62,488 nt of DNA, filler included, from Kipferlia bialata (GCA_003568945.1; 7 parts of 7 records of this genome joined end to end with filler, not necessarily neighbours in it), one strand, 5' to 3'; positions 1-62,488 are shown, counted from the first letter of the whole stretch. Numbers and translations: made by a program. Notes: generated by a model from the sequence alone, not told the origin.

Positions 1-715
1 TGAAGAGGAAGAGAGAGAACAGCACGACCACCAGGAACAGGGACTCGACAAAGGTGTTGCACAGGACCTGAATGTTCTGGGGTAAGAATAGCTATATTGC
101 TATTACTATTCACAAATATGAATTCATATACTAGTATAATACTATCATAATGTCATAGATGTTGCACAGGACTTGGATGTTCTGGGGTAAGACACCAGAA
201 ATGATACTACAATACCCCACATATAAGAATAGACACATATTCTATTGTTTGCTACTCTATAAATACTACAATTACTATTTACTATAAATACTAGGCCTAT
301 ATACATAATATATACCTCCAGGAATGACTCCTCTGTCCAGCCTATCAACAGGATAACGGACATGGTGGTGGGCAGGACAAGCAGACAGATGCCTGTGGGT
401 TATGACAATTATGTACTACTAATATATCAGTAATGTATGAAGAATACAGTATATATGTCATATATCAACAGGATAATGGACATGGTGGGTACATGAGTAC
501 TAATATATACATATACGCATGTATATTTACACCACTCACCTATGGCCAGCAGTGTGTGAATGGGTGCCGATATGGACACCGACTCCACCTTGAAGTGCAG
601 GGCAATCAGGGCGAAGGTGATGATCTAAGGGTTAGAGAGGGAGAGAGAGAGAGAGGGAGACGGATGCCTTGAAGTGTAGGGCAATCAGAGCAAAGGTGAT
701 GATCTAAGGATAAGA

Positions 716-759
<44 letters not shown>

Positions 760-808
760 TGCCTTGAAGTGCAGGGTAATCAGGGCAAAGGTAATGATCT
801 AGTGTTAG

Positions 809-846
<38 letters not shown>

Positions 847-1353
847 ATCCATACCTTTGGAGTGACTAATGGCCACCAGAGGGAGGGTACCCAGGGGATC
901 TGGGAATAAGGGTGCAGACAGAGGGAGAGAGAGGGACAGGGGGAGAGAGATAGTGACAGAGAGAGAGAAGCGGGTATCCTAGGGTATATACCTCTTCGTA
1001 TATGCCTGCACTGTGCACAATGTAGTGGTACATGGATATCTCTACCTCTAATAGTACAATATATATATATATGTATATATATACACGTGTTTATACCTCC
1101 TCGTATATGCCTGCACTGTGCACAATGTAGTGGTACATGATTATCTGTAGGACCAGGCCAAGGGTGTAGATATATACACACACAAATATTAGTATATATG
1201 TATATACAGAAACTCTATATACATACATATCCATACCTCCTCATAGATACCAGCACTATGGACTATGTAGTGGTACATGGATATCTGTAGCACAAGGCCG
1301 AGGGTGGGCAAGATGAACATGCCCACAAGGAAGGCCTTGACGTACTAGAGGTA

Positions 1354-1391
<38 letters not shown>

Positions 1392-4188
1392 GATGAACAT
1401 GTCCACAAGGAAGGCCTTGACATACTAGGGTGAGCTATGGAAATGCACATGCAGTAGCAATACCACACAAATATATCGACAGACTAGGAGATGTACACAT
1501 TGCAAAGCTGATAGAGCGAAAAGGAGAGGGTAAATCCTCCTACCTGGACTGGCTTTGAGACCTGGGTGTCGTCGGGACTGGGGGTAAGAAGGAGTGTGGA
1601 GAACACAGAGAGGTAAAGCGAAAGTAATTTTCTAATTCTTTAATTATATTTCATTAAATATCTTTTCAATATTTCAATTCTTTCTATTTAATTAAACATT
1701 ATTTTTTTCTAAGACCACAGGAGGACATATTGGATCGAAAGAAGTACCGAACAAAGAGGGAGGAAACTCAGAATATGAAGCGAAACATATACTAACAGTT
1801 AACTCTATACTCTACTACACACCATACCTGGGTGGGTTCTTCTCATAGGCATATGCTATATATTCATATATAGTATTTCATATATACTATATACATACTA
1901 TACTCAGACTACATACATATGTATTAGTATACATTATTATTTCACTATACCTGGGAGGGTTCTTCTCATAGGCCGCCATGGACTGTCTGTAGCTGGGGGT
2001 GAGATATGTATATATATATATATGTATATGGTATGTGTATAGTGTCATTATCTATTCAATGTCAGCATATGCCGCCATGGACTGTCTGTAGCTGGGGGTT
2101 AGATAATTAGATACATATTGCACATACATAGAGAAAAAACATAAGGCACATATATAATGTGTATGGAATTATTCCTTACGCGTACTGTTAAGAGAAAGAG
2201 AGAGAGACATACATACCCCATTATGCACATTGGCTGCAGCACACACACCAGGGCCAGTGCCCATCTCATAATATATATATATACTATATACTATATATAC
2301 TATATATATATAATATGTATACTTTATATACACTCTATGCATACAATATACTCTATATATACTATATATATATAGCCATACCCCATTATGCACATGGGCT
2401 GTAGCACACACACCAGGGCCAGTGCCCATCTCATGGATCTGAGGCCGATGGCAGCCGTGGTCTCAAGCTCATACATCTAAAGGGTCAGAAATCTGCTAAA
2501 AATGCGAGTATATATATTAGTTATCTGCTAAATACACGTGTAATATACTTAGAGACATAGATACAATAGTCCTACGGTCAGGAAACTGCTAAAAATGCGA
2601 CTATATATGTGAATCTAAATACAACTAAACGGATAGTAATCTGCTAAAAATATGCGTAGTACAATAGTTGAAATAGACCGATGGCTGCGGTGGTCTCAAG
2701 CTCATATATCTATGGTTAGTATTCAGCCAAAGAGGCGAGTACATATATATCTCTAGCAATTTGGCTAAATCTCGATACAATACCTTCAGCCCAAAGACCT
2801 GCTCCAGCAGCACCATGACCACCCCAATGAAACAGGAGGTGTAGGCAACCCAACGGCCTGACGGTCAGTGTATATATCTGTCTATGTATTGAAGGATATA
2901 TATAATAACACACATATATTGAAGACTATTTTAACAGGAGGTGTAGGCAACCCAACGGCCTGACGGTCAATGCATCTCTACGTAATATTAGCAAATAATG
3001 AATACATACCGCATAGTAAAAGTAATATGGAATATACACTGTATACCTACTGGCCCTGGTGATGTTGGGTTCATGAGTGTGAGGTTCAGCCAGGCATGGG
3101 TGGCCTGGACAGATCTGGTGTGTTAGGGGTATATGTATATAAGTATCAGATGACTTCATAGTCTAATGTATATATATATATATTCATCCAGTTAGGTTCA
3201 GCCAGGCATGGGTGGCCTGGACAGACCTAATGGTAAGCATACAAGTACATAAGCGTCTAACCATGTATGCACTAGATACTATGTCCTTTCTATAACCGAG
3301 ACCCTTACCTCTTTGGGGTCAGGAAGAACTTCATCCAGTGCTTGATCAGACACCTAAGGGTTAGAGTGTAGTCTCAGAGTACTATACACTACACATACTT
3401 GCTATACTGCATACCTAGTTCTGTACCAGATGGTGGGTGCTGTGGCCACAGAGAAATAATTATACAAGAACTAATAATTATTACTTACTATATACTGCAA
3501 TACATTATACCCTATATGTAACAATGTATATGTTCACTACTATCATTGCGTACCTAGTCCTGTACCAGATGGTGGGTGCTGTGGCCACAGACCCATAGTG
3601 GTCAAGTCTGGGGATGAGAGAGTAGTTGTACTGTATAGATAATTATATATATATAGTACATACCTAGCGTCGTGCAGGTTCCCAGCCACAGCAGTCAGGT
3701 CGGCCATGGGGATGAGCTCCCGGAGGACAAGCCTGACAATTAGGGATAATAAATACATACTATATAGAGAAATATATAGTATAAATACACAGGCAGGATA
3801 GTTTATGGGGATGAGCTCCCTCAGGACAAGCCTGACGTAAATATAGGGGTTGACTCTCTCTCTATATATATTATATATATAGGAATATATGGATATATAA
3901 TATAATATATGTACATAGAGGTAGCCATGGGGATGAGCTCCCGAAGGACAAGCCTGGTATTAACATGGAGTATGATAAGTATATATATATACATACATAT
4001 ATTAATATATATATATATATATATATAACATATATAGTATATAGTCAGCCATGGGGATGAGCTCCCTCAGGACAAGCCTGGCATGAGGGTTTACATGTTT
4101 CATATGTGTATGACTGAAGAAGCGCTGTATATACCTTATGTCCCTGAGGATACAGTCCTCGTCCTTTGAGTGTATGTCCCCAATGCCA

Positions 4189-60055: not shown

Positions 60056-60155
60056 NNNNNNNNNNNNNNNNNNNNNNNNNNNNNNNNNNNNNNNNNNNNT
60101 TAATTAATTAANNNNNNNNNNNNNNNNNNNNNNNNNNNNNNNNNNNNNNNNNNNN
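60056..60155. other. Artificial scaffold linker
   Basis: Same structure. Confidence 0.97.
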
Positions 60156-60207
<52 letters not shown>

Positions 60208-60317
60208 TATAGCTGTGGGTTCCTGGGTCTGTATGTGTGGGCCTTGCTCAGAATGTCTGCATGGGTGGAGTTGGTGGGGCCTACGGTGAGGTGTATATGT
60301 AGGGGGAGTGTGCGTAT

Positions 60318-60367
<50 letters not shown>

Positions 60368-60536
60368 AGTACCCCTCAGATCAAGGAGACATGCAGAAGA
60401 CTGGCACCAGAGATAGAAAACACACTGATTACCATATCTAAAATCATACCTGCCAGGGGGGGGTCAGGAAGACTGACACCGGAAATAGAGACTTCAGTGT
60501 ATAAGGAACACATATACATATACATACATTCATACC

Positions 60537-62488
60537 TGCCCTAGCCAGTGGGGGTCTGGCGTCACTGTAGATACCGCCCATGGCACCTGGGGATTAGACC
60601 TATATACACACTAAAGACTTATGCAGAGACGGAGAGAATGAGTACTCACAGTACCTGACAATGCACTCCTGGCCTCTACCCTCTATGCCTTGCTACATAC
60701 ACACACATTATACCATATAACACTCCATATATTCTCGATACGTGTATATATATACAAAGTCTCACCTGAGAATGCCCCCCTCTCTCTCCCCCTCTCACAG
60801 CCTCTCTCTCTCTCCATATATATGAATATATATCTATGCATAATTCTATGGGTACATATTGACACAGTACCTGAGAATGCCCCCCTCTCTCTCCCCCTCT
60901 CAGCCACCGGTGCCTCTAGTGAGGGTGTGGCCAGTAGGGACAGGACACTGGCACCCCTGGGCTTCCCAGCCTTACTAGCAGCACTAGAGGAACTAGAGGT
61001 ACCCGATGCGACCCCTCTACCTCTACTGACAGCCCTTGGCACTACATTGCTGGACATAGCGTTAGGACGGAGTGAGGAAGGCGTGGCTGAAGCTCTAGAT
61101 GCACTAGAAGGCCTTGCTGGTCTAGATGTACTACTAGAGGTGGCTGCAGACAGTACACTGAGTGGCCCAGAGGCAGTGGAACCACTAGAGGTAGTGCCAC
61201 GCATGGAGGTAGGTCTGGGTGCCCGACCACCCCTAGACGCACTTGGCGGTCTACCGTGCACACCCATCACACTAGCAGCGGTGCTTGGCATGCTAGAGGT
61301 AGTGGTACCAGGGGTAACACTGGAGGCAGCATTGGTACCAGATGCACTAGGCGTGGGAGGGGCCAGCGAGAAGAAGTCTGCGAGTTGAGACTGGACAAGG
61401 TTCTGGCCTGATAATTAGGGTATAGAGGGGGAGAGAGTTCGTAGTGCACAATATGTATACTGGCGCAGTGGAGGTATATATATAAAAATATGTATATATT
61501 CGAACCTGGGTATATGGAGACTGTTGCAGGTCCAGCTATGCTCTGTGAGGCAGAGCGACTGTATCCATCCTCAGAGTCACCTCTCTGGGTATGGCTAGAC
61601 ACACTCGTTGAGGCATATCTCTGGGTGGAGCTACCTGAGTACATATCCCTAGCTGTCAGAACCGCGTAGTTGATGAATAGTACTATAAGTAATTTTGTAT
61701 AGTTTATATGATTCGTGTTGACAATTACTCTTTACCTTGGTCCAAAGTGAGGCACCCGGCTCTCTGTCAGTCTCTCTGGGCTGCCTGGGTGTGAGTCTTC
61801 ATTACGGTATCCACATATACAGTAAGTAAACTTTCCTCCTTTATTCATGAAAGAGTCACAAAAGAAAACAGAACACACATACATCATATTCGTAAACATG
61901 TTGAAGGTGCCACACATATTTACAATTTGAATGAAAAATACACGGTATAAAGCAAATGCAGAAAAGTGTACCTGCCGAGGGTGCCACGCTGCAGCTATAT
62001 ATATATATATATATCATTTGTCAATATATAGTACATTGTTATGTATATAATAATACACACCTGCCGAGGGTGCCACACTGCAGCTGGACACGAATGCACC
62101 AATGCCATCCCTCTCTCTCTGCCTGTCTCTCTCTCCATCTCCCACAAGAGCACCTGGGGGTCAGAAAGTTACAGCTGAACTAGTCTATATATACTAGTCT
62201 ATATGTAGGATACATTTACAGAGTACATATCAATAAATATAAAGTAAGTATGCTATATACTCTATGTATACCCACCTGGTGCTGGAGTGACAGATGCCCT
62301 TGAGCCCATATCCCTCTCCCTCTCTCTCTCCCCCTCTCTCTCACTGGTATCCACTGTGGTGGTGTTCCTGAGTCCACTGGGGTGGGCAGACGCATAGAGC
62401 TGGCGTAAGAATACAATTATATATATGTATATCGAGGGGGGGGGGAGAGAGAGACCTGAGGGCAGAGGCATAGAGCTGGTGGTTAGGT
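60537..62488 (-). CDS. Partial Ser/Ala/Arg-rich low-complexity protein
   Basis: Large exon ~60891-61408 (MPSTAASVMGVHGRPPSASRGG...) and exon ~61507-61650 (SGSSTQRYASTSVSSHTQRGDSEDG), plus further small exons with GT-AG boundaries. Confidence 0.6.

What the first reader, a model, noticed from the sequence alone, without database searches (positions are those of the whole stretch)
150..62100. Intronic 'exon echoes': partial copies of exon ends that diverge mainly at synonymous sites
Seen: in unrelated genes on different scaffolds (membrane gene 1-5847, coiled-coil gene, SPC12, MATE, SMC2, hydrolase, RABGGTA), introns contain 1-5 partial copies (about 20-70 nt) of the neighbouring exon's end with its splice site, spaced about 90-110 nt apart. 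Hand counts of changed codons versus the true exon: 39402-39438 vs 39510-39546, 6 synonymous / 0 replacement; 40718-40751 vs 40813-40846, 5/0; ~38540-38594 vs ~38369-38423, 4/0; 58086-58138 vs 57974-58026, 7/0; 1097-1165 vs 1237-1305, 10/1. Established: a dead intronic duplicate should accumulate mostly replacement changes and indels. Inference: these copies diverged under protein-coding constraint, yet each has only one splice site and is flanked by microsatellite sequence, so it cannot act as an ordinary cassette exon. Candidate mechanisms are (a) exon ends recycled by deletion, unequal crossover or gene conversion between direct repeats, (b) capture of junction fragments from deeply diverged alleles during repair at (TA)n tracts, or (c) repeat-guided DNA or RNA rearrangement. 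I do not know of a described system like this.
Basis: partly seen in the sequence, partly recalled or inferred. Interest (0 to 1): 0.93.

Follow-up and report, generated by a model that had tools for sequence, protein, structure and literature searches.

The report
Exon-edge copies that record other alleles
Half of the introns examined in this free-living relative of Giardia hold partial tandem copies of the neighbouring exon's edge that differ from it about five times more often at silent than at amino-acid-changing positions, likely because diverged working alleles keep overwriting them, which would make a single genome a record of recombination and population diversity in this lineage.

Summary
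Confirmed. The organism is Kipferlia bialata. 70 of 138 modelled introns hold 126 partial copies (14-70 nt) of the adjacent exon end plus splice site. Single DNA contigs bridge exon and copy, and the one spliced SMC2 message skips them. The copies also decay (17 frameshifts, 3 stops), so they are not working exons. The structure is the known amphioxus 'mirage', and this scan has found mirages before in sea-urchin and worm genomes. New here: a metamonad protist, the density, and a measured synonymous bias that follows codon usage. Best explanation (0.55): tandem duplication, then repeated overwriting by functional alleles from other chromosomes in a very diverse, recombining population. A toy simulation reproduces the numbers with allelic silent diversity near 0.15; same-chromosome exchange does not. 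No second strain could be found, so this step is inferred. New variant of a known kind; interest 0.62.

The parts
32..5847 (-). Membrane-protein gene (16 modelled exons) with 19 exon-edge copies in its introns
   Evidence: open GT-AG model; copies; frame inferred from the open reading frame only
992..1166 (-). Two donor-type copies (1166-1097, 1044-992) of the end of exon 1344-1237; 10 synonymous/1 replacement codons over 1097-1165
6175..10528 (+). Coiled-coil gene (14 modelled exons) with 19 counted copies; further donor copies run to the scaffold end at 10841
6744..6778 (+). Donor-type copy that begins at its own AG while the exon has GT in register: a possible alternative path or nascent intron
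   Evidence: 1 of 12 such cases among 126
10986..12001 (+). SPC12 gene with 3 copies
   Evidence: Pfam SPC12 E=2e-4, below the curated cutoff
12472..17262 (-). MATE-like transporter gene with 11 counted copies; family name by my reading of the translation, Pfam gave no hit for the one exon tested
13934..14243 (-). Four donor-type copies (period 86) whose exon lies in the N gap; excluded from the counts
19582..21722 (+). Pro/Gln-rich gene with 3 copies
22679..31757 (.). Control region: two genes (24924-22679 minus, 26292-31757 plus) without any copy in 59 exon ends; intron GC 0.48 against 0.39
32936..42818 (+). SMC2 gene (34 modelled exons) with 40 copies; the spliced contig uses the inner, true splice sites
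   Evidence: 100% match to K. bialata Smc2; Pfam SMC_N and hinge; joints and record offsets
37833..38148 (+). Three acceptor-type copies before exon 38148-38203; the nearest shares its intron flank with the exon yet differs at silent sites next to the AG
39402..39438 (+). Acceptor-type copy of exon start 39510-39546, 6 synonymous/0 replacement codons
39847..40068 (+). Young 93-nt tandem unit (92% matches): nearest copy has 2 replacement and 0 silent changes (plain decay), farther copy identical to the exon
40718..40751 (+). Acceptor-type copy with lost AG, 5 synonymous/0 replacement codons against 40813-40846
48519..51638 (-).
55108..59465 (+). Prenyltransferase alpha-subunit (RABGGTA-like) gene with 21 copies
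   Evidence: Pfam PPTA
56744..57066 (+). Five acceptor-type copies before exon 57123-57188 (largest array)
58086..58346 (+). Three donor-type copies of exon end 57974-58026 (period 105); exon and copies encode the same peptide over the last 17 codons, are mutually diverged at silent sites and show all three incompatible splits

Best explanation
These are tandem duplications of about 100 bases that straddle exon-intron boundaries and are skipped in the one spliced message seen, and their exon part is likely overwritten again and again by gene conversion or unequal exchange with working, diverged alleles on other chromosomes. Step 1 (shown): a direct duplication across a boundary leaves a dead half-exon on the intron side, which gives the strict polarity; multi-copy arrays are still tandem repeats. 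Step 2 (shown for SMC2, inferred elsewhere): the spliceosome uses the inner site, probably by exon definition, so the copy is close to neutral. Step 3 (shown): the copy decays, with about 4% change at 0-fold sites, frameshifts, stops and lost AG/GT. Step 4 (inferred): the 30-40 GC-rich bases are the only good homology between alleles whose AT-rich introns diverge quickly, so recombination copies a functional exon end from another chromosome onto the copy, or onto the exon. This resets decay and imports allelic differences, which are mostly silent and codon-usage-compliant. No selection on the copy is needed. Required: allelic silent diversity of about 0.13-0.17, exchange about 25 times faster than point mutation, and some sexual or parasexual contact. 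Step 5 (inferred from literature): loss of NHEJ and Rad51A with two mismatch-tolerant Dmc1 paralogs may favour exchange between short diverged sequences.
For: 0-fold 109/2787 against 4-fold 149/686; ratio 0.20 in RNA-verified SMC2 exons alone. Copy-against-copy comparison is biased too (pS 0.28, pN 0.06); changes private to one copy are 71 silent/65 replacement, those private to the exon 35/3. pN is nearly flat across pS classes (0.034-0.048). GC3 is 0.71 in copies and 0.74 in exons, and the copies' silent codons are as preferred as the exon's (P=0.62). Flank similarity does not predict coding divergence (rho -0.09; 0.14), a patchwork rather than a clock. Flanks are related for 11 of 23 nearest copies in arrays but 5 of 70 single copies, as unequal exchange predicts. 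Toy simulation with exchange from other chromosomes gave pS 0.19, pN 0.039, ratio 0.20 at allelic piS 0.146, and one-way exon-to-copy exchange gave 0.26; observed pS 0.20-0.29, pN 0.03-0.05. In the amphioxus BflGb6 supplement (counted by eye, frame inferred) two exon alleles differ at 5 silent codons, and repeat D3 differs from its own exon at 6 silent/0 replacement codons, 3 of them the other haplotype's exon state. Repair-gene losses: PMC8516963 section 8; Dmc1 tolerance: PMC8682777 abstract.
Against: No second strain or allele was found, so the diversity and the exchange are not observed. The culture shows no second haplotype (1 difference in 9.3 kb), so a haploid or inbred state with rare sex must be assumed. 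PMC8516963 states that sex has not been directly observed in Metamonada. Four mutually saturated versions at 57974-58346 (6-9 silent differences to the exon) need deeper, star-like allelic divergence than a simple population gives; about a quarter of copies fit pS near 0.45. The predicted fall of decay towards the splice site was not robust (P=2e-5 trimmed; P=0.11 after forced extension). The simulation is a toy (whole-tract conversion, lethal replacements, parameters chosen to fit). Incompatible splits rest on 1 informative quartet and could be saturation.
Confidence: 0.55

Rival explanations
1. One-time capture: each copy is born by unequal exchange or break repair between two already diverged lineages (hybrids, cryptic species, an old allopolyploid) and then only decays, with no later refreshing.
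For: Single copies have flanks unrelated to the exon's flank (5 of 70 above the null 95th percentile); multi-base silent swaps such as TCA/AGC and AGG/CGT suggest deep divergence; a two-class mixture fits as well as a gamma (AIC 421.2 against 420.9).
Against: 19 copies are identical to the exon, most of them with unrelated flanks; four mutually diverged versions at one exon need at least four lineages; one third of exon ends carry copies at low decay, which needs very frequent captures.
Confidence: 0.15
2. The copies are used: an undescribed RNA-level or non-heritable DNA-level switch puts the copy in place of the exon end often enough for selection to keep its amino acids.
For: The array at 58086-58346 keeps the peptide while silent sites saturate; 10 copies have at least 3 silent and no replacement change against 3 with the reverse; splice dinucleotides are mostly kept.
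Against: The 3668-nt spliced contig matches the inner exons with no other letters (contigs drop rare forms); only 12 of 126 have an in-register GT/AG path; spacing is not a multiple of three (47/36/43); 17 frameshifts and 3 stops; splice dinucleotides differ at 16 of 252 sites, no less than 0-fold sites.
Confidence: 0.12
3. Same-chromosome recycling: collapse or conversion puts a copy back into the exon often enough that second-order selection purges replacements from the copies in a clonal lineage.
For: Arrays expand by unequal exchange; a weak fall of 0-fold change towards the splice site.
Against: With the same chromosome as the only donor the ratio stayed at 0.46-0.61, even at 2Nmu=2; exchange fast enough to be selected would erase the silent differences.
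Confidence: 0.08
4. Ordinary neutral mirage decay plus mutational or ascertainment bias.
Against: Detection was codon-blind; base-matched permutation gives 91+-7 silent of 319, observed 198; pipeline null 0.48-0.54; changes follow codon usage.
Confidence: 0.05
5. Assembly artefact: divergent haplotypes stacked by the assembler.
For: Short-read assembly with gaps; two perfect 55-nt repeats at N gaps; run X1 may be the source of the assembly and is then not independent; no listed contig covers 39402 or 40718.
Against: Contigs of 0.25-1.3 kb at depth 327-444 with 0-1 differences bridge 14 of the 37 SMC2 exon-copy pairs in the laid stretch (table cut, 166 rows not shown), among them copies with 3-4 silent changes; stacking would give whole exons (0 of 126) and no polarity (0 of 107).
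Confidence: 0.04

Closest known systems
Amphioxus 'mirages' (Adh3, globins BflGb6/BflGb9, troponin C, PGBD5; PMC3087553 passages and supplement 4, PMC3902484 passage)
   Same: Minisatellite-like tandem duplications spanning an exon-intron boundary, at either boundary, many keeping AG/GT, not disturbing splicing, turned over by unequal exchange; the BflGb6 alignment also shows silent-biased differences by my eye count.
   Different: Here a metamonad protist; half of all modelled introns; mostly single copies (70 of 93 exon ends) whose intron part is no longer recognisably duplicated; units about 104 nt; the synonymous bias is measured and explained, whereas the globin paper's main text has no occurrence of 'synonymous'.
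Intron gain by tandem genomic duplication (Rogers model; PMC4974935 and PMC3443670 seen as search listings only; model described in PMC3087553)
   Same: Short direct duplication inside a gene that duplicates splice-like sequence.
   Different: No new intron is made; only 12 of 126 copies have the in-register GT/AG needed.
Tandem exon duplication with mutually exclusive exons (recalled)
   Same: Neighbouring homologous coding segments with low dN/dS.
   Different: 0 of 126 copies is a whole exon; each has one splice site; they carry frameshifts.
Gene conversion between pseudogene or duplicate and gene, concerted evolution of multigene families (recalled)
   Same: A non-expressed copy is kept like a functional sequence by recombination.
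   Different: 30-40-nt tracts 100 nt from their exon, genome-wide in housekeeping genes; no sign of a programmed role such as antigenic variation.
Introner elements (PMC9860276, search listing only)
   Same: Genome-wide source of intron sequence.
   Different: Spacers form no family beyond short low-complexity matches (first 30 rows seen); the repeats are gene-specific.

Membership tests
Mirage (exon-intron boundary tandem duplication) | Direct, head-to-tail duplication spanning an exon-intron boundary | tested here: met
   126 anchored copies with strict polarity; TRF reports arrays with periods 55-189
Mirage (exon-intron boundary tandem duplication) | Copies keep AG/GT in many but not all units | tested here: met
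   AG 66 of 74, GT 46 of 52
Mirage (exon-intron boundary tandem duplication) | Normal splicing is undisturbed | tested here: met
   SMC2 only: 12 listed GT..AG joints and record offsets to 41397 match the copy-free model; other genes not tested
Mirage (exon-intron boundary tandem duplication) | Minisatellite-like units with the intron part also repeated and homogenised | tested here: inconclusive
   True for 11 of 23 nearest copies in arrays, but only 5 of 70 single copies have a related flank
Mirage (exon-intron boundary tandem duplication) | Copy-number instability between alleles or cells | not testable with these tools
   One strain, contigs only; no relative found
Mutually exclusive / cassette duplicate exons | Complete exon with both splice sites | tested here: not met
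   0 of 126 whole-exon copies
Rogers-type intron gain | In-register GT in one copy and AG in the other, so that splicing restores the frame | tested here: not met
   12 of 126; none seen used in SMC2
Retro-copied mRNA fragments | Copies span spliced exon-exon junctions and lack intron flanks | tested here: not met
   3 of 137 junction words gave a hit; two I traced by eye to splice-site look-alikes, the third was not inspected; copies carry intron splice signals
Introner / mobile intron family | Shared element sequence across genes | tested here: not met
   All-against-all of 93 spacers gave mostly short matches that I take as microsatellite-rich sequence (first 30 rows seen, alignments not printed)

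The most novel reading that the evidence does not exclude
The copies are not passive: in a lineage without NHEJ and Rad51A they form a genome-wide set of backup splice junctions that are swapped into exon ends, at DNA or RNA level, often enough to stay under protein-coding selection, an undescribed homology-guided exon-end exchange system.
Probability: 0.12. Interest if true: 0.92.

Novelty: new variant of a known kind. Interest (0 to 1): 0.62.

Why it matters
If the best explanation holds, non-coding DNA here carries a coding-type signature without being expressed, and a single homozygous genome stores samples of other alleles. That would give an estimate of silent diversity (about 0.15) and indirect evidence of inter-chromosome recombination in a free-living metamonad, where PMC8516963 says sex has not been directly observed; the claim is testable by sequencing a few isolates. 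It also warns that low dN/dS in an intronic exon copy does not prove translation. About half of the intron DNA modelled (13,208 of 26,946 nt) is such units, which bears on why this species has 124,912 introns and a 51-Mb genome, on how its spliceosome picks among good acceptors, and on gene prediction (my own predictor took many copies for micro-exons).

Tried and rejected
No whole genome is held, so all counts come from this window. No RNA holder was listed as such; X2 is a guessed RNA run, taken as spliced because its joints are GT..AG. Only one lay of contigs was obtained (32803-42080); other genes have no read check, and uncovered bins prove nothing. Searches for another strain failed: 1 protein among 43 candidates, 0 of 88 stretches for SMC2, best MORN match 65% among 77 loci, none used. 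A gradient of constraint towards the splice site looked strong but weakened after forcing alignments to the splice site: inconclusive. Silent divergence rising with copy number was only partly seen (0.20, 0.29, 0.27 for 1, 2, 3+ copies). The spacer-identity measure has a high null (median 0.70) and is weak. Not modelled or counted: 43.9-47.6 kb, 52-54.5 kb, 60.3-62.5 kb (frame unresolved), the MORN gene, and four MATE copies whose exon is in a gap. The original Adh3 mirage paper and Gao and Lynch 2009 are not held, so I cannot say whether they discuss silent bias. The Paramecium preprint's tables are images and gave no values. No earlier scan note exists for this genome, and none fitted the allele-conversion query.

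
Full report
Setting. The window is seven scaffold pieces joined by N spacers, with short GC-rich exons and AT- and microsatellite-rich introns. An SMC2 exon matches one protein in the database, 'Smc2, partial [Kipferlia bialata]', at 100%, on a contig of 10,820 bases, the length of the scaffold at 32803-43622. I built 11 gene models (149 exons, 138 introns) from a self-trained predictor corrected by hand; all are open and GT-AG. Pfam supports SMC2 and the prenyltransferase alpha subunit, and SPC12 below its cutoff; the single exons tested for the hydrolase, MATE and membrane genes gave no hit, so those names are readings.

Is it real? Two runs hold the SMC2 stretch. In X2 one 3668-nt contig is laid with GT..AG joints at the inner exons; 12 such joints are listed, and the record offsets from 36473 to 41397 equal the summed exon lengths of my copy-free model. 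No second haplotype shows (one differing base in 9.3 kb). Codon-blind alignment finds copies at 92 of 274 exon ends against a 0.26% null, and at 0 of 107 wrong-side tests; two genes have 0 of 59. Of 133 hits, 126 are anchored at the splice site. 70 of 138 introns carry copies and the units make up 13,208 of 26,946 intron bases.

Synonymous bias. The five hand counts are exact but extreme. Pooled: 226 silent/124 replacement differences (198/121 unique), dN/dS 0.14-0.15, with a silent excess in each of the 9 models, weak in two; 198:113 of 1319 codons; 0-fold 3.9% and 4-fold 21.7%; ratio 0.18 (0.14-0.24), and 0.20 in RNA-verified exons. A dead copy beside a live exon should give about 0.5, and the same pipeline on simulated data gives 0.48-0.54. 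Base-matched permutation gives 91+-7 silent of 319. The excess follows codon usage: Lys/Glu/Gln third-position G>A is no commoner than 0-fold G>A, GC3 is retained and the copies' codons are as preferred as the exon's. So the excess was filtered in translated sequence.

The copies also decay. There are 121 unique replacement changes, 3 stops and 19 indels of which 17 shift the frame; 14 of 126 have lost AG or GT. pN hardly changes across pS classes. Changes private to one copy are 71 silent/65 replacement, those private to the exon 35/3. Each copy therefore looks like a functional version of the exon end with a little recent damage. Flanks tell a different time: single copies have flanks at background, nearest copies in arrays often share the exon's flank, and flank similarity does not predict coding divergence. 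That is patchwork, as conversion leaves.

Mechanism. Direct duplication across a boundary explains polarity and spacing (median 104 nt, about one copy-free intron, median 96 nt). Canonical splicing cannot swap a copy in for 114 of 126. A forward simulation of one exon slot and one free slot showed that exchange within a chromosome keeps the ratio at 0.46-0.61 even at 2Nmu=2, whereas exchange from other chromosomes at 25 times the mutation rate gives pS 0.17-0.19, pN 0.04-0.05, ratio 0.20-0.26 with allelic silent diversity 0.11-0.15; with low diversity (0.026) the ratio is 0.39. It shows sufficiency, not proof. Diversity of that size is known from a few outbred nematodes and fungi (recalled; the Paramecium preprint passages gave no values). 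PMC8516963 (passages; section 8) reports that metamonads lack NHEJ, that all examined fornicates lost Rad51A and keep two Dmc1 paralogs, that Carpediemonas membranifera is predicted haploid, and that sex has not been directly observed in Metamonada (I recall older microscopy reports from termite and roach symbionts). PMC8682777 (abstract) states that Dmc1 tolerates mismatches that Rad51 does not. Against my reading: no second strain was found; the four-way saturated array at 57974-58346 needs unusually deep alleles; the splice-site gradient is inconclusive.

Comparison with the known. Earlier scan notes pointed to amphioxus mirages and report them in sea-urchin and worm genomes; one note describes a dead partial copy differing only at silent sites. 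PMC3087553 (passages) defines mirages as tandem duplications of exon-intron boundaries that do not disturb splicing; PMC3902484 (one passage) agrees. In supplement 4 of PMC3087553, by eye and with an inferred frame, the two exon alleles differ at 5 silent codons and repeat D3 differs from its exon at 6 silent and 0 replacement codons, 3 being the other allele's state: a small natural precedent, though ancestral states would look the same. I found no description of these repeats in Kipferlia or of a synonymous bias in mirages in searches; the species' genome paper (PMC5874029; passages, section 12) has no occurrence of 'duplicat'; PMC6679479 (passages) treats only its spliceosomal proteins. The original Adh3 paper could not be read, most subscription journals are not searched, and supplements other than the one named were not opened.

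Verdict. Observation confirmed; structure a mirage; the density in a metamonad and the measured, codon-usage-compliant silent bias are a new variant. Most likely cause: allelic overwriting in a diverse recombining population (0.55, or 0.70 with one-time capture). Interest 0.62.

Noticed in passing
window 20342-20508: The first 12 bases of the intron match the first 12 of the next exon at 11 positions (seen by eye after a junction hit): the footprint expected of intron gain by tandem duplication.
   Followed up: partly
window 5847-6175: Two divergent genes both appear to continue across the long (TA)n tract at 5897-5997 (an acceptor before 5847 on minus, a donor-ended coding piece near 6000-6020 on plus): possible misjoin at the microsatellite.
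   Followed up: no
window 22679-31757: One scaffold has no copies, GC-richer introns (0.48 against 0.39) and half the microsatellite content, suggesting regional differences in recombination or repeat turnover.
   Followed up: partly
window 9621-9728 and 48369-48475: Perfect 55-nt tandem repeats around 2-3 N: likely scaffolding artefacts.
   Followed up: partly
window 44986-47600: Gene with several helicase-associated (HA, PF03457) domains, 4 in the piece tested, with few introns and an apparent frame break near 47400.
   Followed up: partly
window 18107-19328: Nearly intronless gene of 13 MORN repeats amid intron-dense genes.
   Followed up: partly
all modelled coding sequence: Extreme avoidance of A-ending two-fold codons: AAG 200/AAA 0, GAG 358/GAA 11, CAG 217/CAA 6.
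   Followed up: partly
window 10481-10841 and 60760-60900, 61970-62090, 62380-62488: Further exon-edge copies visible by eye or by TRF outside the counted set.
   Followed up: no
window 52080-54517: Region with splice-like signals but no clean reading frame by eye and no visible copies; possibly a decayed gene.
   Followed up: no
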